NCBI GenBank assembly: GCA_963826705.1
Contig: CAWGYF010000022.1
Coordinates: 2,099 to 66,098 of the forward strand
Direction of reading: 5' to 3'
Length of the DNA: 64,000 nt
Source: an uncultured Actinomycetota bacterium
GTDB taxonomy: Bacteria > Actinomycetota > Actinomycetes > Mycobacteriales > Pseudonocardiaceae
Below, piece after piece: positions 4,206-60,261 of this stretch. The position numbers were made by a program, and so were the translations under genes. The notes under the pieces were generated by a model. The model ran no database searches and was not told the origin of the DNA. It saw only the letters and a list, made by a program, of their open reading frames with translations. The number at the start of each line of letters is the position of its first letter. The stretch's first letter is position 1.

Positions 4206-4209
4206 GTCG

Positions 4210-13389: not shown

Positions 13390-13655
13390 TGATCTTGTGC
13401 GGTTCCGCGCAGAGGTGATCGGCAGAAGTGGTGCCCGGGGTGCACTTGCGCACTCGTGACACCACTTGTACCGATCTTGCCCGGCCGGGCCGGGTGATCA
13501 CCGGTTTGTGGTGGCCGGGGTGCACCTGCGCGCTCGTGACACCACTGGTGCCGATCTTGCCCGGCCGGGCCGGGTGATCGCCGGTTGTGGTGGCCGGGGT
13601 GCACCTGCGCACTCGTGGCACCACTTGTGCCGATCTTCCCCCGGCCGGGCCGGAC
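13390..13655. repeat. tandem array A: 3 full units plus 1 partial, 79-80 bp each (63-bp GATC-capped palindromic module plus a 16-bp CCCGGCCGGGCCGG linker)
   Basis: GTGATC unit starts at 13415, 13494 and 13574. Each unit reads GTGATCNCCGG..GTGGTGGCCGGGGTGCACCTGCGC.CTCGTG.CACCAC..CCGATC. It lies between the convergent ldt and cvnD genes. Confidence 0.85.
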
Positions 13656-13738
13656 CGGACCCCACGCGCGCTGCGGCACCGAGCCGCACCGCCGCAACGT
13701 GCGCGAAGTCGGTCAGCGGTCGGGGGTGTGGCCCCAGC

Positions 13739-17832: not shown

Positions 17833-18067
17833 GCGGGTCTCCCTCTTCCACCCTGAACGGTCCGAGCGGCCGGCATGGGGAGCAAGCCTGCTCGGAGGTG
17901 GCAGAACGTTAGCGCCATCGTCGTTCCATCTGGCCATCAGGGTGGTCATGGCTCCAGTTTGCTCCCCCGTTCGGCCTATTCAGCTACCCCTCGTGACGAT
18001 CTCCGAGCCCGCCGCCTACACTCCTGCACTCGAATGGATCAACGCCGACGCAGCATCAGGGACTCAC

Positions 18068-18571
18068 ATGGCCTGTTCACATTCCACCGGCTGCCCGCTC
18101 TTCCCGAAGCTGAACGCGAGTCTGCGCAGCTGGCGCGACGCCTACTGCGACAGCGACACCGGCTGGCAGAGCTGCGCCAGGTTCACGCAGTCGCTGACCG
18201 GCCAGTCGGTGCCGATCACGCTGTTGCCCAACGGGAAGTACGCCCACGCGGTGGCGCGGGCGACCAACCTCGTGGACGCCCCCCAGCGGTCGAGGTTCGA
18301 GTCGGTCCCCCCCACGGGCGCCGCCGCCCCCGGCTCCCCCTTCGAAGCGGCTCCCCCACAGGCCCCGGCCCGCGTCGCACCCTCCATTTGGGATGATCCG
18401 GCGTCTGCGCCGCGGTCCGCCCGGCTGCCGACGCTGCCGCGCGCAGCCGCCGTGGAGTCGCCTGTACTCGTCCGCCCGGCGAAGCCGGTGCGCCAACCCC
18501 CACCTCCGCCGACCCCGGCCCGTGCAGGCTGGTGGACCCGGCTCGTCGACTGGATGCGAGGTCCGGCATGA
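18068..18571 (+). CDS. hypothetical Cys-rich protein with Pro/Ala-rich tail
   Basis: ATG 18068 gives MACSHSTGCPLFPKLNASLRSWRDAYCDSDTGWQSCARF.. (4 Cys in 36 aa), followed by low complexity. The stop overlaps the next start (ATGA). I recognise no family. Confidence 0.5.
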   Translation: MACSHSTGCPLFPKLNASLRSWRDAYCDSDTGWQSCARFTQSLTGQSVPITLLPNGKYAHAVARATNLVDAPQRSRFESVPPTGAAAPGSPFEAAPPQAPARVAPSIWDDPASAPRSARLPTLPRAAAVESPVLVRPAKPVRQPPPPPTPARAGWWTRLVDWMRGPA

Positions 18572-19194
18572 GTGCCTACTGGGCATGGTGGGCGGGAGCC
18601 ATCGGGCTCGCCGCCGTCACGATCTTCTACACCGTCTTGACCGGCCGTTCGCTTGGTCTCTCCACGGCGTGGGACCGAGTGCTGCACTGGCGGGAGGAGC
18701 GCGAGCTGGAACGGCTCGACGAGGCCTTCGCCGACGATGACGTGTTCGCCGAGGCGTTGGCGATGGCCACAGCGGAGGAGTTCGGCACACCGCAGAGCCC
18801 CTCACCGGTGGCGACGGCGCCTGCACCGCTTCCCGAACAGAAGCCGCAGGCCGACACCCCTCGCGGGCCCGTTCCGCTGGCCAGCCACGCCGCGCTGCTC
18901 ATCTCGGTCTTCATCGGCGGTCTGATCGCCGCACTGGTCAGCGGCCGCTTCGACCTCCGGTTCGACATGGGCGACGCCTTCCGCGCCATCGTGACCGACA
19001 ACCCCATCGCCATGATCGTCACCCTGTTCTTCGGGGGTGTCCTCGTCGGCTTCGGCACACGGCTCGCGGGCGGCTGCAGCTCGGGCCACGGCCTGTCCGG
19101 GTGTGGCCGGATGCGTCCGGTCAGCCTCGTGGCCACAGCGGTGTTCTTCGGCACGGCGGTCGCGGTGTCGTTCCTGCTTTGGAAGGTGATCTGA
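18568..19194 (+). CDS. YeeE/YedE family sulfur-compound transporter, first half-type subunit
   Basis: Multi-TM protein carrying the signature GTRLAGGCSSGHGLSGCGRM. Confidence 0.8.
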   Translation: MSAYWAWWAGAIGLAAVTIFYTVLTGRSLGLSTAWDRVLHWREERELERLDEAFADDDVFAEALAMATAEEFGTPQSPSPVATAPAPLPEQKPQADTPRGPVPLASHAALLISVFIGGLIAALVSGRFDLRFDMGDAFRAIVTDNPIAMIVTLFFGGVLVGFGTRLAGGCSSGHGLSGCGRMRPVSLVATAVFFGTAVAVSFLLWKVI

Positions 19195-19613
19195 TGCTGC
19201 ACACCCGCGGCGGGATCCTGCTGGCTACCGTGATCGGCGGTCTCGCGCTCGGTTTCACGGTTGCCCGCATCGGGTTCGCCGACTTCGGCGAGCTCAACAA
19301 GATGTTCACTTTCCAGGACCTGCGGATGCTGCTGTCGTTCGCGGGCGGCGTCGCGATCATCGCGGTCGTGTTCATGATCTTGCGGGTGAAGCGCACAGCC
19401 GGGCGGATCCATCCCGGCGTCGTGCCGGGAGCGGTGCTGTTCGGCACCGGCTGGGCGATCTCGGGCGGCTGCCCCGCGATCCCACTCGTCCAGGTCGCGA
19501 CAGGTTACGTGCCTGCGATCTTCACTATCGCGGGCATCGTCGTCGGCGTCCGGCTGTGCCGCTGGGCCAACTGCCGCTACCTGCACCTCGACCGCGGATC
19601 CTGCGGCCTGTGA
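19194..19613 (+). CDS. YeeE/YedE-related membrane protein, second half-type subunit
   Basis: MLHTRGGILLATVIGGLALGF..GTGWAISGGCPAIPLVQV. The ATG overlaps the upstream TGA by 1 nt. Confidence 0.75.
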   Translation: MLHTRGGILLATVIGGLALGFTVARIGFADFGELNKMFTFQDLRMLLSFAGGVAIIAVVFMILRVKRTAGRIHPGVVPGAVLFGTGWAISGGCPAIPLVQVATGYVPAIFTIAGIVVGVRLCRWANCRYLHLDRGSCGL

Positions 19614-19683
19614 GCGTCACGCCGATCGCCGCAACCCGCACCCAGGGCGCCGCGAAACAACCGAGACGTGCGGCTCGCCGCGA

Positions 19684-21327
19684 TCACCTGCGCGCCTCGT
19701 AAGCGGCGAGGACCTCACCTGACGTGTCGTAGAAGCCGTCCGAGCCGATCAGGTCCGCGATCCCGTAGCGCTCCAGCTCGTCGCGGACCGGCTTGACCAC
19801 ATTGGACACGACTACCCGCGCGCCTGCCTTCTGTTCACGCTGCACAACCTGGGTGAGCACGGTTGCCGCGGTGTAGTCGATGTCCCCGATCGCGGCGGCG
19901 TCCAGGCAGAGCCAGCTCACCGCGGTGCCGTGGCCGGTCAGGGTCACGAGGTCGGTGACGAGCCGGGCGATGTTGGCGAAGTAGAGGCCGCTTCCGAAGC
20001 GGTAGACGAGCAGCCCCTCCGCCGTCCGCGCGCCCGGCGTCACCGGCTGAGAGCGCCAGTGCCCCTCCGCGGACTTCGCCAGCACGCTGCTCTGCGGCGC
20101 GTAGCTGTGCCGCAGGTGGTCGATGATCGAGACGACGACGGCGACCACGATCCCGTCCTCGACGCCGAGCAGCACCACGGCGAGCGCGGTGAGGACCGCG
20201 ACAACGAACTCCGACCGCCGCACGGCCAGGATCCGCCGCATCCCCGCGACATCCACCAGCTCCGCCCCGATGAGGAACACGACGGCGGCCAGCACCGCGA
20301 GCGGGAGCCCGCCCAGGAACCCGGTGGCGACCAGGCACACCACGACGACGAGGACGACGGAGATGAGCTGGGCGAGCTGCGAACGCCCGCCCCCTCCCAC
20401 CACCATCTGGGTCTTGGTCGGGCTGCCGTTGACGACGAACGCGCCGGTCATGGCGGCTGCGAGGTTCGCACCAGCGAGCGCGGTGAGGTCGTCGTCGGTG
20501 TCGACCTGTTCGTCGAACTGCACGGCGTACGCCCGCGAGGTGGCCGCGCTCTGAGCGAGGATCACCACGACCATCGACGCCCCGACAGGCAGCGTGGCGG
20601 CCAGGTCGGCCGGGTCGAGCGCGGGAAGGACGACCCCGGGGAGGCCTGCCGGAACCGGGCCGAGCACCGCCACGCCGAACCGAGACAGCCCGATCACCGC
20701 GTTGCCGACGATCGCCGCCACCACGGCGAGCAGCGCCACCGGGATGCGTCGGTCGAGCATCCGACCCAGCAGCACGACGGCGATGACCGCCGCCGAGACG
20801 AGCATTGTGGCCAGGTGCGCGCTCGGCAGCTCTGCGACGACCCGGATGACCTTCTCGGGGAGTGACCCGCTGCCCGCCTCGACCCCGAGCAGGTCACCGA
20901 GCTGTCCCAGCGCGACCTGCACGCCAACCCCGGTGAGGAAGCCGACCAGCACAGTGCGGGACAGGAAGATCGCGAGGAACCCCAGTTGGATCACCCTTGC
21001 CGCCGCGAGCAGGACCGCGACGACCAGCGCCACCGTGCCTGCCAACGCGACGTAGCGCGGCGATCCCGACACTGCGAGCCCCGACAGGCTCGCGGCGAGG
21101 ATGGCCGCGGTCGCCGAGTCGGCCGCGACGACGAGGTGGCGCGACGAGCACAGCAGCGCAAACACCACCATCGGCGCGAGCATCGTGTAGAGCCCGGTGA
21201 CCACCGGCATGCCTGCGATCCGCGCGTAGCCGAGGACCTCGGGGACGGCCAGCGCGGCGAGCGTGGCACCCGCGATCGCCTCCGGGACCCAGCGGTCGCG
21301 CGGCACGGGAAGCAGGCCGCGAAGCAT
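19684..21327 (-). CDS. SulP family sulfate/anion permease with C-terminal STAS domain
   Basis: 547 aa. N-terminal ..AGATLAALAVPEVLGYARIAGMPVVTGLY.., many TM segments, and a STAS-like tail (WLCLDAAAIGDIDYTAATVLTQVV). Confidence 0.9.
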   Translation of the reverse strand: MLRGLLPVPRDRWVPEAIAGATLAALAVPEVLGYARIAGMPVVTGLYTMLAPMVVFALLCSSRHLVVAADSATAAILAASLSGLAVSGSPRYVALAGTVALVVAVLLAAARVIQLGFLAIFLSRTVLVGFLTGVGVQVALGQLGDLLGVEAGSGSLPEKVIRVVAELPSAHLATMLVSAAVIAVVLLGRMLDRRIPVALLAVVAAIVGNAVIGLSRFGVAVLGPVPAGLPGVVLPALDPADLAATLPVGASMVVVILAQSAATSRAYAVQFDEQVDTDDDLTALAGANLAAAMTGAFVVNGSPTKTQMVVGGGGRSQLAQLISVVLVVVVCLVATGFLGGLPLAVLAAVVFLIGAELVDVAGMRRILAVRRSEFVVAVLTALAVVLLGVEDGIVVAVVVSIIDHLRHSYAPQSSVLAKSAEGHWRSQPVTPGARTAEGLLVYRFGSGLYFANIARLVTDLVTLTGHGTAVSWLCLDAAAIGDIDYTAATVLTQVVQREQKAGARVVVSNVVKPVRDELERYGIADLIGSDGFYDTSGEVLAAYEARR

Positions 21328-25809: not shown

Positions 25810-25873
25810 GTGATCGCCGAGTGCTGCGGTTTCCGTGCGCCTGTACACGAAAACCGCAGGTTTCGGCGATCAT
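25810..25873. repeat. single 64-bp GATC-capped palindromic module
   Basis: GTGATCGCCGA-gtgct-GCGGTTTCCGTG-cgcctgta-CACGAAAACCGC-aggtt-TCGGCGATCAT. An inverted homolog lies at 40428-40491. Confidence 0.8.
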
Positions 25874-26579: not shown

Positions 26580-26587
26580 GAGGGTCG

Positions 26588-26620
26588 GGCGAATGAGGGT
26601 TCCGCGAGCCCTCATTCGCC
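26588..26620. terminator. 12-bp-stem hairpin between convergent genes (member of a small repeat family)
   Basis: GGCGAATGAGGG-ttccgcgag-CCCTCATTCGCC. Half-copies occur at 37650-37671 and 39167-39178. Confidence 0.6.
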
Positions 26621-26629
26621 GGGGCGCTC

Positions 26630-27547
26630 TCAGCCCGCAGCCCGCTTGCGGATGTCCGGGGGGAACGTCCCCTCCTCGACACAGCGCTGTGACCACGCAT
26701 CGGCCTGTTCCACCACGAGCTTGAGGTCATCGCCCAGCGCGGCGAGGAGGTCGCCCTGCGCGGTGTCGGTGGCGGCTTCGACACCGTCGCGGAACACCCT
26801 GCCTGCCTCGGTGATTGAGTCGTCGGCGAGCAGCCCCTCCGCCTCGAGGCGGGCGACGGCCGCGTCGTAGGCCTCCTGCGGCCACGCTCGTGTGCCGCTG
26901 TACTCCCCCACCGGGTAGCCGACCCAGACCTCCGACAGCACACCCATCCGCACGGGATCGAGCCCGGCCGCGATGGAGGCCGCGATGTGCGAGTCGCCGC
27001 GGTGCTCGCGCACCATGTCCGCGGCCCGCCACAGCCGGGCGTAGGGGTCGGTCAGCCGCGGCCGGGAGCGCAGGGCCGCGAACAGCACACGCCCGGTGCC
27101 GTCGACGGCATCGACCGCGTGCTCCAGCACCTGGGCCACCTCGGCAACGGCCGCTTCCGACGCGATCGGTCCGATGGCGCTGCGCAAGCTCGCCGCAGCT
27201 GCGGCGTCCCGGACCGCCATCAGCTCGTCGAGGGAGATCTGCGCACGACCCTCTGTCCAAAGGCTGTCGATCAGCCCCGGCTCGAAGACGGCGAACGTGG
27301 CCGCCACCACCGCGGACGGCACGTCGCCGAGCGCGCCGCCGCGGCCGCAGACGTAGGAGGTGAGGAAGTTCAGCCCGTGCTCGGAGAGCGCGGCATTGAC
27401 CGATGGCGACCACACCGCATGCATGGCCACCGGCTCCAGCACGTCGCGCAGCCGCCGGGCAGGCGATGCGGCGGCGACGACCGGCGGCGTCGCCACGTCG
27501 TCGGGAGCGAGTGTGAAGAAGACCTCGACGGCGGCGGCGTAGTCCAT
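26630..27547 (-). CDS. conserved actinobacterial hypothetical protein (SCO6745-like, from memory)
   Basis: 305-aa ORF with coding-like composition (..LNFLTSYVCGRGGALGDVP..LWRAADMVREHRGDSHIAA..). Confidence 0.5.
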   Translation of the reverse strand: MDYAAAVEVFFTLAPDDVATPPVVAAASPARRLRDVLEPVAMHAVWSPSVNAALSEHGLNFLTSYVCGRGGALGDVPSAVVAATFAVFEPGLIDSLWTEGRAQISLDELMAVRDAAAAASLRSAIGPIASEAAVAEVAQVLEHAVDAVDGTGRVLFAALRSRPRLTDPYARLWRAADMVREHRGDSHIAASIAAGLDPVRMGVLSEVWVGYPVGEYSGTRAWPQEAYDAAVARLEAEGLLADDSITEAGRVFRDGVEAATDTAQGDLLAALGDDLKLVVEQADAWSQRCVEEGTFPPDIRKRAAG

Positions 27548-27684
27548 GCCCGAAACCCTAAGCCCCTCTCATCCCCCAGTACGCGGCTGATCGGGCGCGA
27601 AGACCGCGGGCGTTGATCCGCGGGACAGGGCCTAGGGTCCTCTCCGCGAGCAAGGGAGCTCCAGAAACAACGAGAGGAAGCGCA

Positions 27685-35063: not shown

Positions 35064-35074
35064 TCCCGGGGCCG

Positions 35075-35184
35075 CCGTGGCGAAACCGCGGACTCGCCGT
35101 GGCGAAACCGCGGACTCGCCGTGGCGAAACCGCGGACTCGCCGTGGCGAAACCGCGGGCTCGCCGTGGCGAATCGGCCAACACG
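35075..35184. repeat. 22-bp tandem repeat, 4 near-perfect copies plus 1-2 degenerate
   Basis: CCGTGGCGAAACCGCGGACTCG is repeated head to tail immediately after the esterase stop. Confidence 0.85.
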
Positions 35185-35275
35185 CCGTGGCGGGGCGCTG
35201 GACTCACCCGTCGGGGACCGCGCCCCACAGGGTGAGTCCAGCAGTCCACCACGCCGAACCCGCCGATTCGCCACG
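35164..35275. terminator. nested ~110-bp imperfect palindrome between convergent genes
   Basis: The outer arms are CGTGGCGAATCGG (35164-35176) and CCGATTCGCCACG (35263-35275). The inner 13-bp stem is GCTGGACTCACCC (35197-35209) paired with GGGTGAGTCCAGC (35230-35242). Confidence 0.6.
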
Positions 35276-37231: not shown

Positions 37232-37392
37232 GGCCGTGTCCCGCGGATCAGCGACCGCGGTCTTCGCGCCCAGGCGGCCCCTGGCTTCGTTGTCGGACGA
37301 CTCGAGTACGCCCGGTACGAGAGCCGCCCTCCGCCTTGGCAGGAACCGCCCGGATCACGAAGCCCATCGGCCTTGATCCGCGGGACACGGCC
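37232..37392. mobile_element. 161-bp MITE-like element with perfect 19-bp terminal inverted repeats
   Basis: GGCCGTGTCCCGCGGATCA (37232-37250) pairs with TGATCCGCGGGACACGGCC (37374-37392). A solo end homolog lies at 27594-27632. Confidence 0.7.
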
Positions 37393-37600
37393 TAAGAGGG
37401 TCTCAACGATCAGGACGTCACAGGTGGCGTTCCTGATGACGTCGCCGGGCACGGAGCCCAGCAGACTGCCCGTCAGCGCGCCCAGCCCACGGGTCGCCGA
37501 CCACGATGAGGTCGGTTTCCGGGTTGTCGGCCGCTTCGAGAAGGACGTCGGCGGGTTGTCCGGCGACCACCCGCTGTTGCACTTCCGGGATGCGGCCCCG
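37393..37600 (-). pseudogene. universal stress protein remnant (C-terminal part, frameshifted, native stop lost)
   Basis: Two minus-strand frames together read ..VVAGQPADVLLEAADNPETDLIVVG / ATRGLGALTGSLLGSVPGDVIRNATCDVLIVE, the USP C-terminal motif. The N-terminal ~80 aa are absent, and the reading frame runs into the MITE-like TIR. Confidence 0.55.
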
Positions 37601-37952
37601 GCACGAGGATGCCGGGGCGCCTTGCGCTGCAGGCACCTGGATGCCGCGGGCTCGCGGAACCCTCATTCGCCGGACCCCTCCCGGGTTCAGGACGCCACCG
37701 ACACCCAGTCGGCCTGACCCCACCTCGAACTCGACTGGCATCCCTGCCGGGCCCACCGCCCCCGGCCGGGATGCCAGTCGACCATCCGCCGTCGGCCACC
37801 GTGGGGTCGGAGGGCGTGTGAGGTCGGCCGGGTGGCCGGCACAGGCGGACCTCGCAGAGTTTGGGGTGACTTCGCAGGAGGTCGAACTTCTGCGACGACG
37901 CTGGAGGATCCGCGAGGTCGGCCGCAGCACATGCATTCTTGGTGGAGCTGGA

Positions 37953-38600
37953 CGGCCCACGACCCCCCGTCGGGCTGTGATCACCGATAGTGGTGCCCGA
38001 GGCGCAGAGTTGCACGGCCTGCACCATTCCCAGCGATCATGGCGGCTGGCGGCCGGCGGCCGGCGGCCGGCGGCCGGTGGCCGGCGATGGGCGACGGGCG
38101 GGGTCAGCGGGTTGGTTGGGCGCGGCGAACGGCCCACGACCCCCGTCGGGCCGTGATCACCAATAGTGGTGCCCGACGCGCAGAGTTGCACGGCCTGCAC
38201 CATTCCCAGCGATCATGGCGGCTGGCGGCTGGCGGCCGGCGGCCGGCGGCCGGCGATGGGCGACGGGCGGGGGCCGGCGGGTTGGTTGGGCGAATGGCCC
38301 GGTCCAGCTGTGATCACCAATAGTGGTGCCCGAGGCGCAGAGTTGCACGGCCTGCACCATTCCCAGCGATCATGGCGGCTGGCGGCCGGCGGCCGGCGGC
38401 CGGCGATGGGCGATGGGCGACGGGCGGGGTCAGCGGGTTGGTTGGGCGCGGCGAACGGCCCACGACCCCCGTCGGGCTGTGATCACCAATAGTGGTGCCC
38501 GACGCGCAGAGTTGCACGGCCTGCACCATTCCCAGCGATCATGGCGGCTGGCGGCTAGCGGCCTGCGGCTGGCGACGGGCGGCTGACGGCCGTGGACGCG
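37953..38600. repeat. tandem array C: 4 units of 157-176 bp (64-bp GATC-capped module plus a G-rich spacer with variable GGCGGCC heptads)
   Basis: GTGATCACC unit starts at 37977, 38153, 38310 and 38479. The module is GTGATCACCAATAGTGGTGCCCGAGGCGCAGAGTTGCACGGCCTGCACCATTCCCAGCGATCAT. Confidence 0.9.
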
Positions 38601-39105
38601 GTATGCCCACCTCGCAGAGGGTGTGGTGTCCTGGCAGATGGTCGAGCTCAATGCCGGTTTCTTAAGGTGGGACGTCTGGTAGCTGACGGTTGCCCGGACC
38701 AGACAGCACCCGAGCTGTGATGATCGACTGAAGGGTGCACCGGCGAAGTGCGCAGGGAGCGCGGCCCCCCGGCAAGAACCGAATGCTCGACCCGGTCGCC
38801 ACGGTGATCGCCGCCCGTGGTGCCCAGAGTGCGCCGCTGCGCCACCCACACCACTCTTGACGATCATGGCCCGACTGCGCCCGACTGCGCCCGACTGCGG
38901 GGCTCCCGGTGGACGGTGATCGCCAAAATTGTGACATAACGGCCACATGTGGCGCTCATGTCACACAACCGGCGATCAACGCTCGGCAGCAGGCCCACGG
39001 GCGGCGGCGACCGCGCTGGATCCTTGCCGATCATGAGTTGCCTGCCGCACCCCTCAGCAAGACGATCACCGAGATCCAGGACCGCCGCAGCGGTATCGCC
39101 TGCAC
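38600..39105. repeat. mosaic repeat D, copy 1 (several different GATC-capped modules plus linkers)
   Basis: Contains 64-bp modules at 38805-38868 and 38917-38980, a 3x 10-bp linker repeat (CCGACTGCGC, 38871-38900) and a quasi-palindromic CTGGATC..GATCCAG module (39016-39080). Homologous to 45600-46045 and 59700-60050. Confidence 0.85.
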
Positions 39106-39189
39106 GTCGTCCATCACGAGTCGGCAGCCACCGTCAGAAACGCAGCCTTGGCGTCGCGGGCCGGGGCCCTCATTCGCCGGGCGCTCTAT

Positions 39190-39943
39190 GCTCGGACGGT
39201 GGTCGAGGGCGCAGGCGGCCGGTCGGGTGGGGTCTCGCGCGGGCTCGCGCTGCTCGTCGCCGGAAGCTACTTCATGGAGATCCTCGACGGCACGGTCATC
39301 GCGCCCGCGGCTCCGCACATCGCGGCCGACCTCGGCGTGCTCGCCGTCGACATCAACGTCGCGATCACCGCCTACGTCCTGACGCTGGCCGTGCTGATCC
39401 CGGTCAGTGGATGGCTGGCTGACCGGTTCGGCGCCCGGCGGGTGTTCCTGTCCGCCGTGGCCGTCTTCACGCTCGCCTCCGTCGGCTGCGCGGTCGCCGT
39501 CGACCTGCCGATGCTGACGGCCACCCGTGTGCTGCAGGGCGTGGGCGGGGCGATGATGGTGCCGGTCGGCAGGTTGGTCGTGCTCGGCGACGACTCCACT
39601 GCCGGTGCTCCTGGCGCTGCTGGCGGCCAGCGGCGTCTTCCGGTCAGTGGGCTTCACGACCTACAACACCGTCGCTTTCGCCGACGTCGAGCCCGCGCGG
39701 ATGACGCACGCCAGCACCCTCAACTCGACGCTGCAGGAGATCGGCGCGGGTCTGGGGGTCGCGGTCGGCGCGCTGCTGGTACGCCTCGGGGACCCCCTGG
39801 GTCACGCGATCGGCCTCGGCCAGGGCGGCAACCAACCCTTCCGCGTCGCGTTCGCCCTGCTCGCGGTGCTGCTGGTGCTCCCGATGGTGGAAGGCCTGCT
39901 GCTGGAGCGCGCCGCGGGCGACGCGGTGACAGGTCGCGCCTGA
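39190..39943 (+). pseudogene. DHA2-type MFS transporter with a large internal deletion and frame change
   Basis: The N-terminal part (..YFMEILDGTVIAPAAPHIAADLG..LADRFGARRVFL..RVLQGVGGAMMVPVGRLVVL) jumps at about 39588 into another frame that encodes only the last TM segments (PVLLALLAASGVFRSVGFT..LQEIGAGLGVAVG..). About 250 codons are missing. Confidence 0.7.
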
Positions 39944-40054
39944 GCAGCCCACTTCGCACCCCGCACCGGCACCTCGCATGTCGCGCACGGGGTACGAGGT
40001 CACCTCGCGGCGCGCAGCAGGCCTCGGCGGGGTGCGAGAGTGCCATGGCGTCGA

Positions 40055-40210
40055 TCAGTACCAGTGGCGCCTGCCCCCGACCATGCGGCCCGTCCCGCCG
40101 AGGATGGCGAGGATCGCGCCGATGACCAGCAGGATGATCCCGATGGTCCAAAGGATGGAGATGTGGGCGATGAAGCCGATGATGAGCAGGATCAACCCGA
40201 GGATTATCAC
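40055..40210 (-). CDS. small two-TM membrane protein (51 aa; DUF6131-like from memory)
   Basis: GTG 40210 lies 6 nt after AAGGGAGAG. Product: VIILGLILLIIGFIAHISILWTIGIILLVIGAILAILGGTGRMVGGRRHWY. Confidence 0.65.
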   Translation of the reverse strand: MIILGLILLIIGFIAHISILWTIGIILLVIGAILAILGGTGRMVGGRRHWY

Positions 40211-40425
40211 GTAATACTCTCCCTTGAGGCGCGGGCCCCGGCGCCGATCTGGACCGGAGTGTGGCGGAGCATAGGGATGTTGGGCGGGTTCCGCAGGCTC
40301 TAATGGCCGGGCGCCGGACAACCTGTCGAAACGGTGACGAAAGCCTGTCCCAACTGTGATGTGGCCGCGCGTTCGGGGGAATCGCCATGTCCGGCTCGTC
40401 CGGATCGGGCCGTGCGTCCCCAGCG

Positions 40426-41662
40426 TCATGATCGCCGAAACCGGCGGTTTACGTGTGCAGGTGCACGGGAACCGCCGCGCTCGGCGATCACGGGCCGGTC
40501 GCAGGCGGCGATGGCCACGCAGAGGAGCGTGACGCCGCCGCCGATGATGACGACCGGGCGCGGGCCCAGCCCGACCGCCACACCGGTGAGCGCGCTGCCC
40601 GCCGATGCGGCGGCGATCTTCCAACCCGCCACCGCGGCGAACACCTCGCCCCGGCGACCGGGCGGGGCGTGCTCGTTCCTCGCGTCGAGCGTCGCCGTGA
40701 CCCAGGGCGCCGTCAGCAGCCCGACGACGGCGAAGGCGACGACGGCCGTCATGTAGCTCGGGGCGCCGCTGACGAGGAGGTAGCCCACGCCGAGCGCCGC
40801 CGCGAACCACAGGCTCCGGCCAACGGCATCACCGCGCAGGGGCCGGGCGAGCACGGCAAGTGAGCCTGCGAGGTTCCCCACCTCCGAGTGCGCAGATCAG
40901 CCACCCGCCGCGAGTGCCGTCACCGGTCATGTCGACGGCGAGCAGGACGGCCACGACGCCGAGCGCACCGCCGGTCGCGGCGGTCGCCAGTGTTGTGCTC
41001 GTCACCCTGCGCAGCGGCCGGACGGTCAACAACAGCCCGCCTGCCGAACCCCGCGGCCGGTCCTGATGCCTGCAGGCAGGCGGCGCTGGGGGCAGGAACC
41101 GGATCAGCGCGGCGGCGAGCAGGACCAGCGCACCGATGCCCCACAGCCCAGCCGACGGCGAAACGGCAGCGGCCAGCCCGACCACGGCCGCGGGCCCCGC
41201 CGTGCCCGCGACGGCGTAGGTGATGGCGTCGATGCTGTACGCCCGGTCAGGCGCCGTGCCGAGCCCCGCGGCCAGCGAGCTGAGACCGCCGGTCAGAAGC
41301 GGCCCGCACGACCCCGCCACGAGCAGTGCGGCACCCGCGGGCCACGGCCACCCGGCGGCCAGCATCCCGACAGCGAGGGCAAGCGCAGCCGCGTAGACCG
41401 CGCAGCCCGCGGCCAGGGGTCGGCGCACGTCATCGGCCCGGTCGACCAGGCGCCCCAGCCACGCGCCGCAGATGTGCGGCACCGTCAACGCGGCGCTCAG
41501 CAGGCCGCCGACCAGCGCCCCGCCGGGGCCCATCCGGGCGACGGCGAACAGGACGATGCCGACCGCCGCACCCGCGTCACCGACACGGGCCAGCGTCGCC
41601 GCCACGAGATACCGCGGCAGCGCCCACGAGTTCGTCACCGGTCTGACAGGTGATTGCGTCAT
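40426..41662 (-). pseudogene. MFS transporter with a 1-nt frameshift near 40875 (G-run); the 3' end runs into a repeat module
   Basis: The frame from ATG 41662 (MTQSPVRPV..LARVGDAGAAVGIVLFAV..) ends at 40829. The continuation (.GNLAGSLAVLARPLRGD..) is in the +1 frame. The last ~21 codons are encoded by the 64-bp module at 40428-40491. A sequencing error cannot be excluded. Confidence 0.6.
40428..40491. repeat. single 64-bp GATC-capped palindromic module (inverted homolog of 25810-25873)
   Basis: ATGATCGCCGA-aacc-GGCGGTTTACGTG-tgcaggtg-CACGGGAACCGCC-gcgc-TCGGCGATCAC. Confidence 0.8.
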
Positions 41663-43490: not shown

Positions 43491-44105
43491 GTGGTGGCCG
43501 TGGACACCGAAGGTGGCCAGGCGAGGCTGGTCGATTTCGACACGGACTCGTTGGCGGATGCCCTGGACGTGTACTTCCCGGCGCCGCTGAGCCTGTCGTT
43601 GGTGGCGAACACGTTCGCGCACAACGGCATGCAGCGACAACTGGGGCAGTTGCTCGACCTCCACGACGGCCAGGTCGACGAGATCGTCGCCGACCTGCGG
43701 CGTCTGGGCCCGCCACGACGGCACCTGGAGGTCACCGCGACCGCGCACCACTCGGTGCCGGGGCAGGGGGCGATGCACCTGCATGTGCACGCCTACGTCG
43801 CCCGGAAGGCGCGTGACTCCGAGACGGGCGAGCTGGCATCTCTCCCGCGTGATGCGCTCGCGGCCACCGCACGGACGGCCTGGCGCCGCTACTCGGACCG
43901 TCTGAAGGAGCGGACCACGGAGGTACTGGGCTTCGGGTGGGACCCGCTCCCCGACGACGCGTCGACGGGCGCGCCGGTCGAGGGCGGCGACGAGGTGCGG
44001 GTCGTCGGCCTGCCGCGTGCGGTGCACGTCACCGGTCTCGAGATGTGCGTCTGCCACGGTTACCTCGGCCCGCATGAGCAGATCGTGGCCTCGGGGCATC
44101 GGTAG
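43491..44105 (+). CDS. hypothetical protein with a relaxase-like (MobF/TrwC motif III-like) histidine cluster
   Basis: ..LEVTATAHHSVPGQGAMHLHVHAYVARKARDSETGELASLP..WRRYSDRLKERTTEVLGFGW resembles H.xSR..DPxLHTHxxxxN...DG.w.aL of MobF relaxases. At ~200 aa it is far shorter than a relaxase. The start is probably GTG 43500. Confidence 0.4.
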   Translation: MVAVDTEGGQARLVDFDTDSLADALDVYFPAPLSLSLVANTFAHNGMQRQLGQLLDLHDGQVDEIVADLRRLGPPRRHLEVTATAHHSVPGQGAMHLHVHAYVARKARDSETGELASLPRDALAATARTAWRRYSDRLKERTTEVLGFGWDPLPDDASTGAPVEGGDEVRVVGLPRAVHVTGLEMCVCHGYLGPHEQIVASGHR

Positions 44106-44119
44106 ATCCCGTTGGCCCG

Positions 44120-44285
44120 CTAGTGCGGTGGCCACAAACGTTGCCGGGGTGATCGCGTGATCCAGGCGACGACGCGCAAGGCGCCGCCCGAAGCTCATAC
44201 CGGGCGTCTTCGCGAGGGCGGCAACGCCGCGCGTCGTCGCCTGGGCGCGCGAGGACCCGGTGAACGTTTGTGGCCGCCGCACTAG
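44120..44285. mobile_element. MITE copy 2 (variant subfamily), CTAG on both flanks
   Basis: CTAG-TGCGGTGGCCACAAACGTT ... AACGTTTGTGGCCGCCGCA-CTAG. The right CTAG supplies the TAG stop of the VOC gene. Confidence 0.85.
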
Positions 44286-45599: not shown

Positions 45600-46045
45600 T
45601 CGCGCTGGATCCCTACCGATCATGAGTTGCCTGCCGCGCCTCCTCAGCAAGACGATCACCGAGATCCAGGACCGCCGCAGCGTTCGCGCGGTCGCCGCCG
45701 CCCGTGAACCTGCTGCCGAGCGTTGATCGCCGGTTGTGTGACATGAGCGCCACATATGGCCGGTATGTCGCAATTTTGGCGATCACCGTCCACCGGGAGC
45801 CCCCGCAGCCGGGCGCAGCCGGGCCATGATCGTCAAGAGTGGTGTCGGCGGCGCACCGCTGCGCTCCTGGCACCACGGGCGGCGATCACCGGGGCGACCG
45901 GGCCGAGCATTCGGTTCTTGCCCCCGCCAGCCGCCCCGCCAGCCGCCAGCCGCCATGATCGCTGGGAATGGTGCAGGCCGTGCAACTCTGCGCCTCGGGC
46001 ACCACTATTGGTGATCACAGCCCGACGGGGGTCGTGGGCCGTACA
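45600..46045. repeat. mosaic repeat D, copy 2 (inverted relative to copy 1, except the terminal CTGGATC..GATCCAG module)
   Basis: 45604-45690 matches 39015-39100 in direct orientation. 45685-46045 matches the reverse complement of 38770-39015 plus one array-C unit. Confidence 0.85.
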
Positions 46046-46589
46046 CCAGCCCGTCGAGCTGTCGATCGGCCATGCCCCGCACCAGGTCGTCCTCGGCACT
46101 GCGGCTGCCGTCGGTCTCGGCGATCACCAGCAAGCTGCCGTGCGTGATCGCGGACGCGCACGCCCCCCGGACCATCTCCCCCGCGTACGGCTTCCGCGGC
46201 CCGAGAGCGGCCAGCAAGCGGTCCTCGGGGGGAAGCGGCGGCTGCGCGGTGTCGAGCCGGTCGAGGAAGTCGTCGACCGCGGCCAGCGAGCGCCGATCCT
46301 GCGGGCCACCCAGCCCGAGGATGGCCCGCCCCGGCGCCTGTCGCTGTGCCGCGTGGTAGAGCCCCAGAACGTCGTCGGGCCCGTAGACCGCGGCGGAGAG
46401 CACCGCTGTCCCGATCGCCACCGACCGTGTGGCCGCGAGCAGGTCGAGCACCCGGTCGGGCCGGTCGAGCTGGCCGCCAGGGAGCCAGAGCGCCGAGTAG
46501 CCGAGTTTCTCCAGCTCCGCAGCATCGTGGCGATGCCCCCCGTCGTCAGCGACTTCGACTGCGAATCCGACCTGTCCGATGTCAGCCAT
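46005..46589 (-). CDS. luciferase-like (LLM, probably F420-dependent) oxidoreductase, likely 3'-truncated by repeat DNA
   Basis: ..AAELEKLGYSALWLPGGQ..RAILGLGG..RLLAALGPRK.. resembles LLM-class proteins. At 194 aa it is shorter than the ~280 aa I expect, and the last ~12 codons are encoded by an array-C-type module. Confidence 0.5.
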   Translation of the reverse strand: MADIGQVGFAVEVADDGGHRHDAAELEKLGYSALWLPGGQLDRPDRVLDLLAATRSVAIGTAVLSAAVYGPDDVLGLYHAAQRQAPGRAILGLGGPQDRRSLAAVDDFLDRLDTAQPPLPPEDRLLAALGPRKPYAGEMVRGACASAITHGSLLVIAETDGSRSAEDDLVRGMADRQLDGLVYGPRPPSGCDHQ

Positions 46590-49517: not shown

Positions 49518-50500
49518 CTAGCGGGCCAGTGCGCCCCCGTCGACGGCGAGGCAGTGGCCGGTGACGTGCCGGGCCGAGTCGCTGAGCAGCCAGATCAGGG
49601 CGCCGGTGATGTCGTCCGCGGGGATGACCTCCACGAGCAGCTGGTCGTGCAACCAGCGTTTGTGGACGTCGTCGGGGGTGAGGCCCAGCTCGTCGGCGAG
49701 CCCGTCGAGCATCGGGGAGGAGACCGCGCCGGGCAGGATCGCGTTGACGGTGACGCCGTCGCCCGCCAGCTCGATCGCCATGGCGCGGGTGAGCCCGACG
49801 ACGCCGTGTTTGGCCGCGACGTAGTGCGCGAACTCCGGTAGGGCCCGCACGCCGCCGGTGGAGGCGATGTGGATGATCCGCCCGCGCGGTGACCGCCGCA
49901 GGTGGGCGGCGGCGGCCTTCGTCGTGCGCCAGACGCCGGACAGGTTCGTGTCGACGACCGCGCCCCACTGCTGTTCGGTGAGCTCCCAGAACGGGGCGCT
50001 GGTGACCACCGCGGCGTTGTTGACCAGGATGTCGAGCCTGCCGAACCCGTCGACGACGGCCGCCACGGCTTCCTCGACGGACGCGGCGTCACGCACATCG
50101 GCGACGACGGGCAGCGCCCGGCCCCCGGCCGCGCGGATCTCCGCGACGACGCCGTCGAGCTCCGCGCGGGTGCCTAGTGCGGTGTCCAGAAACGTTCACC
50201 GGGTCCTCGCGGGCCCAGACGACGCCTCGCGGCGTTGCCGCCCTCGCGAAGACGCCCGGTATGAGCTTCGGGCGGCGCCTTGCGAGACGCCGCCTGGATC
50301 CCGCGATCACCCGGCAACGTTCCTGGACACCGCACTAGCGGGTAGGCGGGCACCTCGAGGTCGCGGCAGACGTCGAGCGCGGCGATCGCGGCGCCCGCGT
50401 CCGCCAACGCGAGGCAATGCGAGCGGCCCTGGCCGCGGGCGGCGCCGGTGACGAGGGCGACCTGCCCTCTCAGATCGGGGTTGAGCGCGGCCCCGAACAC
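49518..50500 (-). pseudogene. mycofactocin-type SDR oxidoreductase interrupted by MITE copy 3
   Basis: GTG 50500 follows GGTGGAGG. The N-terminal part ..GQVALVTGAARGQGRSHCLALADAGAAIAALDVCRDLEVPAYPL stops at the MITE. The remainder (GTRAELDGVV..YVAAKHGV..CLAVDGGALAR) resumes after it, and removing 161 bp restores a 273-aa ORF. Confidence 0.85.
50174..50338. mobile_element. MITE copy 3, inserted in a coding sequence, CTAG on both flanks
   Basis: CTAG at 50174-50177 and 50335-50338. Nearly identical (2 differences seen) to the reverse complement of copy 4. Confidence 0.9.
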
Positions 50501-53749: not shown

Positions 53750-54020
53750 GATCACGCTGCGGGCCGAGTGCGCATGCCGTGGTGTGACGGCATGCGCTGC
53801 GGGGCCGGCTGCACAAGCGCTCCCGGCCCGGCTGGACAAGATCGGCGCAAGTGGTGCCACACGTGCAGATGCGCACCCCTGACACCGCAACCAGCGATCA
53901 CCCTCTCCGCACACCAGGCAAGATCGGCAGAAGTGGTGCCACACGTGCAGATGCGCGCCCCTGACACCGCAACCAGCGATCACCCCTGCCCACGCCGGAC
54001 AAGATCGGCGGAAATGGCGT
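53750..54020. repeat. tandem array B: 2 full units of ~82 bp plus partial units of the same module family as array A, in opposite orientation
   Basis: Modules at 53840-53901 and 53922-53983 read GATCGGC..AGTGGTGCCACACGTGCAGATGCGC.CCCCTGACACCGCAACCAGCGATCAC. An 11-bp-stem variant GCGCATGCCGT..ACGGCATGCGC lies at about 53769-53796. Confidence 0.85.
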
Positions 54021-54173
54021 CCCCCGCCGCCCCGGCCGCGCCCGCCGCGCCGCTCTCTCCGTCTGACCTCGTGCTCACCATCGCAGGCGAAGCCATGCTC
54101 AAGGGGGCAGACGGCGGACAAACGTGCGAAATCGCGGGGTCCGATGGCTCCACCCCCGGCCGCCGCACCGAGA

Positions 54174-59699: not shown

Positions 59700-60050
59700 C
59701 CCGCGATCGCCTGGTTGGCCTGCTGCCGAGCACTTGATCGGCGGTTGTGGGACATGAGCGCCACATATGGCCGTTATGTCACAATTTTGGCGATCACCGT
59801 CCACCGGGCGGCCCGCAGCCGGACCATGATCGTCGAGAATGGTGTCGGCGGCGCACCGCTGCACTCTGGGCACCACATGCGGCGATCACCATGGCGACCG
59901 GGTCGAACGTGCGGTCCTTGCGGGGAGCCCGCTCACCCTGCGCACTGCGCCGGCGCACCCTTCAGTCAGCGATCATCACAGCTCGGGTGCTGTCTGGAGC
60001 GGACACCCATCAGCTGCCGGACGTCCTACCTTGAGTAACCGGCATTGCAC
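59700..60050. repeat. mosaic repeat D, copy 3 (same orientation as copy 2)
   Basis: 59735-60045 matches the reverse complement of 38645-38985 at about 95% in the 64-bp modules. It has one copy of the 10-bp linker repeat. Confidence 0.85.
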
Positions 60051-60261
60051 TCCGCGGAGTCCGCGGACCCTGCGAAGCGATGGCGGGCTCTGCGTGGCGG
60101 CGGTCGATCGCGAGGACGCGCTCGCTGAGGTCGGCGAGGCGAATCTGCCTGCGTCGGGCCAAAGGGGTCGTTCGCGGTCACCGCGCAGTGCCGCAACTCG
60201 TGCCGTCGTGGTGCTCCTCCCCCAGCCTGCACGCCCCAGCGGCTCCGCCGTCGACGCAGCG

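What the first reader, a model, noticed from the sequence alone, without database searches (positions are those of the whole stretch)
38805..38980. Family of 62-64-bp GATC-capped palindromic modules with conserved ends, conserved length and divergent but still self-complementary cores
I count about 18 intergenic modules across the window, all sharing one architecture: GTGATC(R)CC, a variable core of ~46 nt, then GG(C)GATCA(Y). The two termini are inverted repeats of each other.

The total length is 62-64 bp in every copy I counted:
- 13415, 13494 and 13574
- 25810
- 37977, 38153, 38310 and 38479
- 38805 and 38917
- 40428
- 45723 and 45826
- 53840 and 53922
- 59736 and 59826

The cores fall into at least four unrelated sequence classes:
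- AGTGGTGCC..GCACC
- GCGGTTTCCGTG..CACGAAAACCGC
- GTGACAT..GGCCACATGTGGC..ATGTCAC
- GTGGTGCCCAGAGTGCGCC..

Each class still folds into a long hairpin. Constant ends and length with interchangeable palindromic cores resemble REP/BIME-type elements, or sites recognised by a structure-specific protein. I do not know of such a GATC-capped family described for actinomycetes, and no candidate partner gene (for example a RAYT-like Y1 transposase) lies in this window.

Several modules overlap gene 3' ends. The MFS ORF ending at 40426 and the LLM ORF ending at 46005 both finish inside a module.
Basis: seen in the sequence. Interest (0 to 1): 0.7.

Follow-up and report, generated by a model that had tools for sequence, protein, structure and literature searches.

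The report
GATC-capped palindromic repeats in Pseudonocardia
The window holds 18 copies of a 64-bp hairpin-forming DNA repeat that is scattered between genes in Pseudonocardia-type actinomycetes, behaves like the REP elements of E. coli, and may be partnered with an uncharacterised nuclease gene that is itself bracketed by such repeats.

Summary
The window holds 18 modules of 64 nt (one of 65). Each has two GATC caps exactly 56 bp apart around a dyad-symmetric three-stem core. They are far above chance and match no Rfam family.

- **One diverged family.** The cores are not four unrelated classes. All copies align without gaps, and symmetry is kept by compensatory changes (23 of 29 pairs).
- **Distribution.** The family is abundant in some Pseudonocardia genomes and in high-GC soil metagenomes. 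It was absent from 2.9 million viral contigs, and two composite units tested found nothing in the plasmid collection.
- **Turnover.** Syntenic regions of related genomes lack the modules.
- **Position.** Modules sit mostly downstream of genes, especially between convergent ones, and often supply the stop codon. They build tandem arrays and mosaics.

**New lead.** In all five independent lineages sampled, an AbiEi-type HTH + DUF559 (Vsr-like) nuclease gene is bracketed by palindromes of one lineage-specific class. In four lineages its stop codon lies inside the downstream copy. This resembles RAYT/REP with a different enzyme. No such gene lies in the window.

The transposition mechanism, target site and any RNA-level role remain untested.

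The parts
13415..13478 (-). module, class A (GTGGTG...CACCAC core)
   Evidence: CM 70.2 bits; alignment A1
13494..13558 (-). module, class A, 65 nt (1-nt insertion)
   Evidence: CM 62.3 bits
13574..13637 (-). module, class A
   Evidence: CM 72.3 bits
13376..13653 (.). tandem array of 3.5 units of 80 bp (module plus a 16-17-nt spacer); begins with a truncated module arm at 13376-13394
   Evidence: TRF period 80, 85% matches
19622..19687 (+). degenerate module-like sequence (CCGATCGCC...CGCGATCAC, GATC spacing 58) abutting the SulP gene stop; candidate only
   Evidence: CM 13.1 bits, E 0.16
25810..25873 (-). module, class B (GCGGTTT...AAACCGC core), single copy upstream of a Na/Ca-exchanger gene
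   Evidence: CM 69 bits; homology to 40424-40492 ends within 3 nt of the module
37977..38040 (-). module, class E
   Evidence: CM 71.2 bits
38153..38216 (-). module, class E
   Evidence: CM 70.9 bits
38310..38373 (-). module, class E
   Evidence: CM 70.7 bits
38479..38542 (-). module, class E
   Evidence: CM 70.9 bits
37952..38581 (.). tandem array of 3.8 units of about 169 bp (class E module plus GGCGGCC heptad runs plus spacer)
   Evidence: TRF; self-BLAST
38804..38867 (-). module, class D (the first module inside the finding's coordinates)
   Evidence: CM 66.6 bits; DNA fold z -2.35
38916..38979 (-). module, class C (GTGACAT...ATGTCAC core; the second module inside the finding's coordinates)
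   Evidence: CM 68.1 bits; DNA fold z -4.55
38649..39016 (+). composite repeat unit that carries the D and C modules; also present at 45686-45922 (reverse complement) and 59714-60047 (reverse complement)
   Evidence: self-BLAST 82-89% identity
40428..40491 (+). module, class B; forms the last 21 codons and the stop of an MFS gene fragment (ORF 40426-40881, minus strand)
   Evidence: CM 71.9 bits; Pfam partial MFS_1; DNA fold z -6.2
45723..45786 (+). module, class C
   Evidence: CM 65.4 bits
45826..45889 (+). module, class D
   Evidence: CM 71.7 bits
   Evidence: (70.7 bits)
53838..53901 (+). module, class A2 (decayed; poor fold)
   Evidence: CM 70.1 bits; DNA fold z +0.28
53920..53983 (+). module, class A2
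   Evidence: CM 69.1 bits
53835..54017 (.). tandem array of 2.2 units of 82 bp; ends in a truncated module (54001-54057)
   Evidence: TRF
59734..59797 (+). module, class C
   Evidence: CM 64.3 bits
59826..59889 (+). module, class D
   Evidence: CM 72.9 bits

Best explanation
The modules are a REP/BIME-like family of non-coding, dispersed, dyad-symmetric DNA repeats. The family is found in Pseudonocardia and allied uncultured high-GC actinomycetes.

**Shown**
- Each unit is 64 bp. It has GATC caps 56 bp apart and three nested stems.
- Core sequence drifts, but the symmetry is restored by paired changes.
- Copies are gained, lost and replaced between related genomes.
- Copies are tolerated mainly downstream of genes. 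The TGA inside the cap xTGATC often ends the neighbouring ORF.
- Copies amplify locally into tandem arrays and mosaics.

**Inferred**
- The driver is a roughly 290-aa protein. Its N-terminal part is an AbiEi-type winged-helix domain, a domain known to bind inverted repeats. Its C-terminal part is a DUF559/Vsr-like PD-(D/E)XK nuclease domain.
- In every lineage sampled, the gene for this protein is bracketed by two palindromes of one lineage-specific class.
- I propose that the HTH reads the symmetric core and the nuclease nicks at or near the caps, in duplex or extruded hairpin form. This would start copying, homing or gene-conversion-type spread of the palindrome, with or without the gene. 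Solitary modules would be its non-autonomous progeny.
- Once in place, a module may act passively as a bidirectional hairpin at transcript 3' ends.
For: **A real, structured family**
- Statistical support.
- 79.5% of cells are paired, against 27-50% for slid controls. 23 of 29 pairs show changes on both sides.

**Taxonomic restriction and abundance**
These held 73 modules in 296 kb.
- There were 0 hits in 2.9 million viral contigs.
- A metagenome scan that fixed only the ends gave a bimodal result. About 40 of 97 hits had strongly palindromic and very diverse cores. All of these came from contigs of 69-78% GC.

**Turnover between related genomes**
- L048 and L049 are collinear with window 874-32599 and have no modules where the window has four.
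- L041 has none either.
- At one shared site, L093 has a module. L147, with flanks 93-96% identical, has none. L148 has a module of a different class.

**Position**
- 35 modules lie in convergent, 29 in tandem and 5 in divergent intergenic regions. The background is 59, 165 and 58.
- 14 of 99 modules supply a gene's stop codon.

**Mosaic structure:**

**Partner gene**
- Domain assignments for L023 5893-6759:
  - Pfam DUF559/MTES_1575 plus AbiEi_4.
  - PADLOC AbiEi models, E 1e-14 to 1e-18.
  - PDB entry 3HRL, an endonuclease-like protein.
- This gene sits between two module arrays.
- Its only full-length homologues in 0.9 Mb of sampled DNA are L103, L120 and L146. Those contigs were fetched solely by the module pattern, and each gene is bracketed by modules.
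- The count is 4 genes in 502 kb of module-bearing DNA against 0 in 428 kb without modules.
- Module class matches within a locus and differs between loci.
- More distant homologues show the same layout with different palindromes:
  - Tsukamurella (44% identity) is flanked by inverted 42-nt palindromes. The same palindrome also occurs alone in other intergenic regions.
  - L156 (46% identity) is flanked by 50-nt palindromes, and the downstream one contains the stop codon.
- Catalytic-type residues D...E.DG..H are invariant in the five-protein alignment.
- The DUF559/Vsr clade includes a homing endonuclease (PMC3424549).
Against: - No clean empty-site versus filled-site pair was obtained. No target site, duplication or cleavage position is known. 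The closest comparison, L093 against L147, shows a replacement rather than a simple insertion.
- The gene association rests on five independent lineages and on no biochemistry.
- The window itself has no such gene.
- The two palindromes flanking the gene are in direct orientation in L103 but inverted in Tsukamurella and L156.
- AbiEi domains are known autoregulators. The flanking palindromes could therefore be just an operator and a terminator.
- A bias towards G.T over A.C mismatches on one strand, which would point to a single-stranded intermediate, appeared in the window (43:16). It was not reproduced in the independent metagenome set (59:47 overall; 35:40 after clustering).
Confidence: 0.6

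Rival explanations
1. The modules are host-selected cis elements. On this view they are bidirectional transcription terminators or hairpins that stabilise mRNA 3' ends, and they spread by duplication and gene conversion rather than by a dedicated enzyme. The AbiEi-DUF559 gene would simply use one copy as its operator and another as its terminator.
For: - Modules are strongly enriched between convergent genes and depleted between divergent ones.
- Modules abut stop codons.
- The hairpins are stable: RNA folding gives -22 to -43 kcal/mol.
- Being palindromic, a module folds in transcripts from either direction.
- AbiEi proteins are known to bind inverted repeats in their own promoters (my own knowledge of the AbiE literature).
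Against: - Modules are not conserved at orthologous positions in related genomes.
- No run of T follows them (flanks).
- Tandem arrays of 3-12 units are more than termination needs.
- Some copies have decayed and no longer fold.
- No Rfam family matches.
- The mismatches show no preference for G.U in the independent sample.
Confidence: 0.2
2. The modules are minimal MITEs. Each would be two fused terminal inverted repeats of an insertion sequence, moved in trans by a conventional DDE transposase, with GATC as the duplicated target. The different core classes would come from different parent IS copies.
For: - The whole unit is an inverted repeat of constant length.
- GATC sits at both ends, as a 4-bp palindromic target duplication would.
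- The same window carries a classical 165-bp MITE with CTAG on both sides, so MITE activity exists in this genome.
- In strain CNS-004 the modules sit inside longer repeat units of about 470 bp, some bounded by CTAG.
Against: - No full-length element with these ends and no isolated half-sites were found in the 360 kb held at that stage (window plus the 37 genome loci).
- No transposase lies next to any module. The ORFs near the window's modules were scanned against Pfam, and a DUF559-family profile was run over six-frame ORFs of all local DNA.
- Conservation reaches beyond GATC and is asymmetric (3' AC is conserved, the 5' dinucleotide varies), which does not fit a simple duplication.
- The window's clusters are not bounded by CTAG.
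Confidence: 0.1
3. The modules are a dispersed set of duplex binding sites for a symmetric DNA-binding protein, such as a nucleoid-associated or global regulatory protein. This could be the AbiEi-like protein itself. On this view there is no mobility function.
For: - Dyad symmetry is kept on both arms, and the independent sample shows no strand-specific wobble bias.
- The fixed 56-bp spacing between caps suggests a protein ruler.
- Arrays have a regular period of 80-82 bp in two different genomes.
Against: - Core sequences differ greatly between classes within one genome. A single protein would have to read shape rather than sequence.
- Presence differs between related genomes.
- Modules are placed behind genes rather than in promoters.
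Confidence: 0.07
4. The modules are genes for a structured small RNA family.
For: Covariation supports a three-stem fold. In the window, one strand folds better as RNA.
Against: - No Rfam match, even at permissive thresholds.
- Orientation relative to the neighbouring genes is mixed.
- The wobble bias was not reproduced.
- Covariation is equally expected for a DNA palindrome.
- Many copies are decayed or truncated.
Confidence: 0.03

Closest known systems
REP elements, REPINs and BIMEs with their RAYT (TnpA-REP) transposases in Proteobacteria
   Same: - Short, extragenic, imperfect palindromes in high copy number.
- They cluster into mosaics and arrays, and they are concentrated at gene 3' ends.
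- Sequence classes are lineage-specific.
- A single-copy gene is bracketed by the class of palindrome that has spread in that genome.
   Different: - The unit is 64 bp with three stems, not 20-40 bp with one.
- It has GATC caps at both ends instead of a 5' GTAG-type tetranucleotide.
- The bracketed gene encodes an AbiEi-HTH/DUF559 PD-(D/E)XK nuclease, not an HUH Y1 transposase.
- The hosts are actinomycetes.
Bacterial MITEs (for example Correia/NEMIS, ERIC, RUP, and the 165-bp CTAG-flanked MITE in this same window)
   Same: Small, non-coding, inverted-repeat elements that fold into hairpins, are dispersed between genes and differ between strains.
   Different: No target duplication could be shown. 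No parent IS or DDE transposase was found. The unit is shorter than typical MITEs and is palindromic over its whole length.
AbiEi antitoxins of type IV AbiE toxin-antitoxin systems
   Same: The N-terminal 130-170 residues of the bracketed protein match AbiEi models. AbiEi binds inverted repeats (my own knowledge).
   Different: No AbiEii nucleotidyltransferase gene is adjacent. The domain is fused to a nuclease, and the gene is flanked directly by palindromes.
Vsr / DUF559 clade of PD-(D/E)XK nucleases, including the homing endonuclease I-Bth0305I (PMC3424549)
   Same: The C-terminal domain matches DUF559, MTES_1575 and PDB 3HRL. The clade contains nicking and homing enzymes.
   Different: To my knowledge no member has been linked to a dispersed palindromic repeat family. 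No activity was tested here.
TRIT-type repeated terminator motifs of Mycobacterium tuberculosis (recalled from my own knowledge; not tested here)
   Same: A repeated hairpin motif found downstream of many actinomycete genes.
   Different: No sequence relation was tested. The modules here form arrays and are not followed by a U tract.

Membership tests
REP/BIME with RAYT | Short imperfect palindrome, extragenic, many copies per genome | tested here: met
   There are 18 copies in 64 kb, and 73 in 296 kb of Pseudonocardia loci. Positions are intergenic. The unit is 64 bp, longer than classical REPs.
REP/BIME with RAYT | Conserved GTAG-type tetranucleotide at the 5' foot of the hairpin | tested here: not met
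   The invariant positions are GATC at both ends plus a 3' AC.
REP/BIME with RAYT | Copies arranged in mosaic clusters with regular spacing | tested here: met
   Arrays of 80, 82 and 169 bp and a composite C+D unit. CNS-004 has dimers with a 71-bp period and 81-bp arrays. Orientation is direct in the window and inverted in the CNS-004 dimers.
REP/BIME with RAYT | Associated HUH Y1 transposase gene flanked by REPs | tested here: not met
   tblastn with RAYT and IS200 TnpA sequences written from memory found nothing in 480 kb. The bracketed gene found instead is AbiEi/DUF559.
MITE | Terminal inverted repeats | tested here: met
   The whole unit is dyad-symmetric.
MITE | Target-site duplication | tested here: inconclusive
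   GATC at both ends could be a duplication, but no clean empty site was recovered.
MITE | Parent IS with the same ends that encodes a transposase | tested here: not met
   No isolated half-sites or full-length element in the 360 kb held at that stage. The search did not cover a whole genome.
Rfam structured RNA families | Match to a curated covariance model | tested here: not met
   0 hits at gathering score over the whole window, and 0 at E<=1 over 37900-40600.
Integron attC sites | R''/R' core sites (RYYYAAC / GTTRRRY) separating gene cassettes next to intI | tested here: not met
   The ends are GATC-based. Tandem arrays contain no cassettes.
Canonical intrinsic terminators | GC-rich hairpin followed by a run of T | tested here: not met
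   The 3' flanks are GC-rich and contain no T run. Terminator activity without a U tract cannot be tested with these tools.
Type IV AbiE toxin-antitoxin (for the bracketed gene) | AbiEi antitoxin paired with an adjacent AbiEii nucleotidyltransferase toxin | tested here: not met
   The AbiEi domain is present. The neighbours are palindromes and unrelated genes.
DUF559/Vsr-like PD-(D/E)XK nucleases (for the bracketed gene) | Match to the DUF559 profile with conserved acidic and histidine motif | tested here: met
   Pfam DUF559 36.6 bits (cut-off 20.6) and MTES_1575 38.2 bits. PDB 3HRL at E 4e-5. The motif D..E.DG..H is invariant in the five-protein alignment A4. Activity was not tested.

The most novel reading that the evidence does not exclude
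Actinomycetes may carry a previously unrecognised counterpart of the RAYT/REP system. In it, a nuclease of roughly 290 aa, an AbiEi-type winged-helix domain fused to a Vsr-like PD-(D/E)XK domain, would generate and maintain lineage-specific families of dispersed palindromes.

Three palindrome types were seen next to such genes:
- the 64-bp GATC-capped modules in Pseudonocardia;
- a 41-bp TGCGGTGGAT-type element in Tsukamurella;
- a 50-bp GATTTCGGCGTG-type element in a further actinomycete assembly.

This would be a new enzymatic route to REP-like repeats. It would also give a function to part of the large DUF559 family.
Probability: 0.35. Interest if true: 0.8.

Novelty: new variant of a known kind. 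Interest (0 to 1): 0.62.

Why it matters
REP-type repeats shape transcript ends, recombination and genome rearrangement. They have been studied almost only in Proteobacteria, where a Y1 transposase (RAYT) is their partner.

This finding adds three things:
- A well-defined, abundant family in a genus important for natural products and biodegradation. It comes with a covariance model and clear diagnostic features: GATC caps 56 bp apart.
- An explanation for assembly breaks and for truncated genes in these genomes.
- A testable candidate partner of a different enzyme class.

If the AbiEi-DUF559 link holds, it gives a function to a widespread 'unknown' protein family. That family has 193 clusters at 50% identity with E<=1e-30 and thousands of more distant relatives. 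It would also show that REP-like systems arose more than once.

Tried and rejected
**Searches that found nothing**
- Rfam, at gathering score and at permissive thresholds.
- tRNA/tmRNA scan.
- Plasmid collection, queried with the D+C composite and with the CNS-004 unit.
- Viral contigs, queried with the module pattern. With the protein family they gave only domain-level hits.
- Paper searches for Pseudonocardia or actinomycete REP/MITE/BIME, for DUF559 and for AbiEi linked to repeats.
- tblastn with RAYT and IS200 TnpA sequences written from memory. This is a lead only, not a test.
- Isolated half-modules as ends of a larger IS; only array-end truncations and decayed copies turned up.
- Leader sequences of the nuclease genes next to other modules.
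- tblastn against plasmids for more full-length homologues; only the Tsukamurella gene was found.

**Ideas tested and dropped or weakened**
- Strand-specific wobble bias as evidence for an RNA or single-stranded DNA form. It was seen in the window but not reproduced in the metagenome set.
- Exact empty site for the module at 25810 and for the array after the YkuD gene. The intergenic DNA of the relatives is too diverged.
- Switch of module orientation at about 39-40 kb as a replication-strand effect. The GC skew is weak and noisy, no origin or terminus genes are present, and the pattern has about a 9% probability by chance (and reasoning).
- A composite-transposon reading of the 6.4-kb segment 13299-19694. 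L047 keeps a remnant of the conservon kinase, so deletion in the relatives is equally likely.
- A small ORF starting at the ATG of ATGATC. The 5' dinucleotide varies and no reading frame is conserved.
Full report
**1. The observation**

At 38805-38980 the window holds two hairpin-forming units. They lie at 38804-38867 and 38916-38979 and are separated by three copies of GCCCGACTGC. An eighteenth lies at 45955-46018.

When oriented alike, the units read WWGATCG...GATCAC and are 64 nt long; one is 65 nt. The two GATC tetranucleotides start exactly 56 bp apart in 17 of 18 copies.

The statistical support is strong:
- A class pattern gives 15 hits against 0.
- A covariance model built from 16 copies scores all 18 at 62-73 bits. 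The next best hit in the window scores 13.5 bits.
- Among all self-complementary GATC-capped stretches of 24-120 bp in the window, spacing 56 dominates by 7 to 3.

Truncated units close the tandem arrays at 13376-13394 and 54001-54057. A degenerate candidate lies at 19622-19687.

**2. Anatomy**

The units align without gaps at 71-73% mean column identity. They are therefore one diverged family, not four unrelated classes. Invariant positions are the two GATC and the 3' AC.

Three nested stems are supported: cap, middle and inner. On 60 distinct copies from the window and from other genomes, 79.5% of cells pair, against 27-50% when partners are slid by 1-3 columns. In addition, 23 of 29 pairs show changes on both sides (window only).

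Most copies fold far better than shuffles as DNA, with z-scores from -2.1 to -6.2. A decayed copy does not (53838, z +0.28).

The ends are asymmetric: the 5' dinucleotide varies while 3' GATCAC is conserved. In the window, the strand defined this way carries more G.T than A.C mismatches (43:16). An independent metagenome sample does not show this (59:47 overall; 35:40 after clustering). I therefore do not claim a strand-specific single-stranded form.

**3. Higher-order arrangement**

Modules occur in several arrangements:
- Singly: class B. Homology between its two copies stops within 3 nt of the module.
- As tandem arrays with periods of 80, 82 and 169 bp.
- As a composite D+C unit of about 250-350 bp, present three times.

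In Pseudonocardia sp. CNS-004 they occur as head-to-head dimers with a 71-bp period, embedded in repeat units of about 470 bp. They also occur there as arrays with an 81-bp period. This mosaic behaviour is what defines BIMEs.

**4. Whose genome, and how widespread**

Window proteins find their best named relatives in Pseudonocardia.

- **Genome scan.** Almost all were Pseudonocardia: sp. CNS-004, P. kunmingensis, sp. MH-G8, P. sulfidoxydans and metagenome-assembled genomes. These loci hold 73 distinct modules, nearly all of 64 nt.
- **Viral scan.** The same pattern has no hit in 2.9 million viral contigs.
- **Metagenome scan.** A scan that fixed only the ends (ATGATCGCC-N46-GGCGATCAC) gave 97 hits that split in two. 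About 40 have strongly palindromic cores, and all of these come from contigs of 69-78% GC. The rest are chance matches with non-palindromic interiors.
- **Core diversity.** The palindromic cores are very diverse. They include GGGACAT, GAGTTCGG and CTTTGAGCCGGTGAG types and others.
- **Origin of one contig.** A protein on a GGGACAT-class contig has Pseudonocardia as its closest named relatives, at 64-68% identity.

**5. Turnover**

Two related genomes (L048, L049) are collinear with window 874-32599 at 80-90% nucleotide identity. They carry no module where the window has four. A third relative (L041), collinear with 44.2-53.6 kb, has none either.

Three related metagenome lineages differ at a single convergent intergenic site:
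- L093 has a GGGACAT-class module.
- L147, with flanks 93-96% identical, has 337 nt of other DNA and no module.
- L148 has a module of another class.

Modules are thus gained, lost and replaced on short time scales. I could not recover a clean empty site, so the target and any duplication remain unknown.

**6. Genomic position**

I used crude gene calls based on third-codon-position GC content for 87 modules. Of these, 35 lie between convergent genes, 29 between tandem genes and 5 between divergent genes. The background is 59, 165 and 58 such regions.

In 14 of 99 modules, the TGA inside the cap xTGATC is the stop codon of a gene-like ORF. In one case this holds on both sides.

In the window, the ORFs that end in modules are gene fragments:
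- ORF 46005-46589 carries 52 residues of a LacI-family regulator. Its homology ends where the repeat unit begins.
- Two MFS fragments face each other around the module at 40428.

The E-D-C clusters at 37.95-39.0 kb and 45.7-46.05 kb are inverted repeats around 6.7 kb of rearranged DNA. Modules therefore mark breakpoints here.

**7. A candidate partner gene**

In CNS-004 (L023), two module arrays bracket a 289-aa ORF. Its domain matches are:
- DUF559 and REase_MTES_1575 at the C-terminus and AbiEi_4 at the N-terminus (Pfam).
- AbiEi models at E 1e-14 to 1e-18 (PADLOC).
- The endonuclease-like protein 3HRL (PDB).

All three lie on metagenome contigs that had been fetched solely by the module pattern. 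That is 4 genes in 502 kb of module-bearing DNA against 0 in 428 kb without modules.

The layout is the same in each:
- A module lies 46-60 nt upstream of the start, followed by a conserved leader.
- The TGA stop lies inside the cap of a downstream module. In L146 it lies instead in a TGATCA remnant 20 nt before a module.
- Flanking modules match in class within a locus and differ between loci: GTGGTG in L023, GGGACAT in L103 and GGTGC-AAAGC in L120/L146.
- The class beside the CNS-004 gene is the class that fills the CNS-004 genome.

Two more distant homologues show the same layout with different palindromes:
- In Tsukamurella tyrosinosolvens (44% identity), the gene is flanked by inverted copies of a 42-nt palindrome, TGCGGTGGAT-N21-ATCCACCGCA. 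The same palindrome also occurs alone in other intergenic regions, one of them between convergent genes.
- In assembly GCA_009612975.1 (46% identity), the gene is flanked by 50-nt GATTTCGGCGTG-type palindromes. The downstream one contains the stop codon.

That makes five independent lineages, and all five show the arrangement. The residues D...E.DG..H are invariant in the alignment of five proteins, one per locus. The full-length family has 193 clusters at 50% identity with E<=1e-30. The Vsr/DUF559 clade is a recognised branch of PD-(D/E)XK nucleases and includes a homing endonuclease (PMC3424549).

**8. How it most likely works**

Shown:
- A dispersed, dyad-symmetric, length-constrained DNA repeat family with fast turnover.
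- Placement at gene 3' ends.
- Mosaic amplification.
- A nuclease gene consistently bracketed by its own class of palindrome.

Inferred:
- The winged-helix domain recognises the symmetric core, and the nuclease cuts at or near the caps. This would drive copying or homing of the palindrome.
- Solitary modules are non-autonomous copies.
- Hairpins at transcript ends are a by-product or a secondary benefit.

The rivals are a host terminator or stabiliser, a conventional MITE, a duplex binding-site array and a small RNA. Each is listed with its evidence. The terminator role is compatible with the main explanation rather than exclusive of it.

**9. Comparison with known systems**

The family works like REP/BIME with RAYT, but it fails two defining features of that system. 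It has no GTAG-type foot and no Y1 transposase. It also fails the tests for MITE parentage, attC sites, canonical terminators, Rfam families and AbiE toxin-antitoxin pairs; see the membership table.

No description of it was found in the searchable literature. That does not prove none exists.

**10. Verdict**

I rate it as a new variant of a known kind: REP-like repeats in actinomycetes, with distinctive GATC caps and a fixed length. The added lead of a new type of partner enzyme would raise its importance considerably if confirmed. Interest: 0.62.

Noticed in passing
window 4208-4371, 44118-44281, 50178-50340 (reverse complement), 60260-60423: Four copies (88-96% identical) of a 165-bp MITE. 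It has terminal inverted repeats GTGCGGTGTCC... and CTAG on both sides, and it folds into one long hairpin (-104 kcal/mol as RNA). It is absent from the orthologous site of relative L041 (GGGTGCCGAGCGGG), so CTAG is the likely target duplication.
   Followed up: partly
window 26581-27668; also 37232-37271 and 37648-37677: A 1.09-kb segment carrying an HTH_67-family gene is absent from relatives L048 and L049. CTAG lies near both of its ends (26576, 27632). Its 30-40-bp end motifs recur in inverted order around 37232-37677.
   Followed up: partly
window 37952-39016 and 45686-46045; 39012-39092 and 45601-45682: The E-D-C module clusters form inverted repeats of about 250-350 bp around a 6.7-kb segment. 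An 82-bp sequence (95% identical) sits in direct orientation just inside each cluster. This suggests past inversion or recombination between repeat clusters.
   Followed up: partly
window 46037-46192 (inside ORF 46005-46589), 39148-40125 (+), 40426-40881 (-), 43491-44105 (+): Gene fragments lie next to the repeat clusters. They are a 52-aa piece of a LacI-family regulator, two partial MFS transporter ORFs facing each other, and an ORF with a weak TrwC-relaxase match (25.2 bits, at the cut-off).
   Followed up: partly
window 13299-19694: A 6.4-kb segment separates the convergent YkuD and SulP genes. It holds module array A, a four-gene conservon-like operon (ATP_bind_1 and neighbours) and sulphur-transport ORFs. 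In L048 these two genes are only 8 bp apart. L047 keeps a remnant of the kinase, so loss in the relatives is as likely as gain here.
   Followed up: partly
window 13316-13355, 37850-37890, 38610-38650: A motif of about 40 nt, CTCGCAG..GTGxC..TCGCAGxAGGTCGA, recurs next to module clusters. It is unexplained.
   Followed up: no
window 35073-35192, 15348-15462, 38041-38101 and neighbours: Short tandem repeats: 22 bp x 5.5 copies, 15 bp x 7.7 copies (inside the large conservon-kinase ORF), and GGCGGCC heptad runs beside each class E module.
   Followed up: no
L149 (Tsukamurella tyrosinosolvens NZ_LR134454.1) 1359-1400 and 2353-2394; L150 1501-1544; L151 1501-1542: A 41-42-nt palindrome, TGCGGTGGAT-N21-ATCCACCGCA, flanks a DUF559/AbiEi gene in inverted orientation. 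It also occurs alone in other intergenic regions of the same strain.
   Followed up: partly
L156 (GCA_009612975.1) 1426-1475 and 2363-2412: A third type of palindrome (GATTTCGGCGTG...CACGCCGAAATC, about 50 nt) brackets another AbiEi-DUF559 gene. The gene's stop codon lies inside the downstream copy.
   Followed up: partly
whole window: GATC occurs 553 times, about three times the number expected from base composition (about 171).
   Followed up: no
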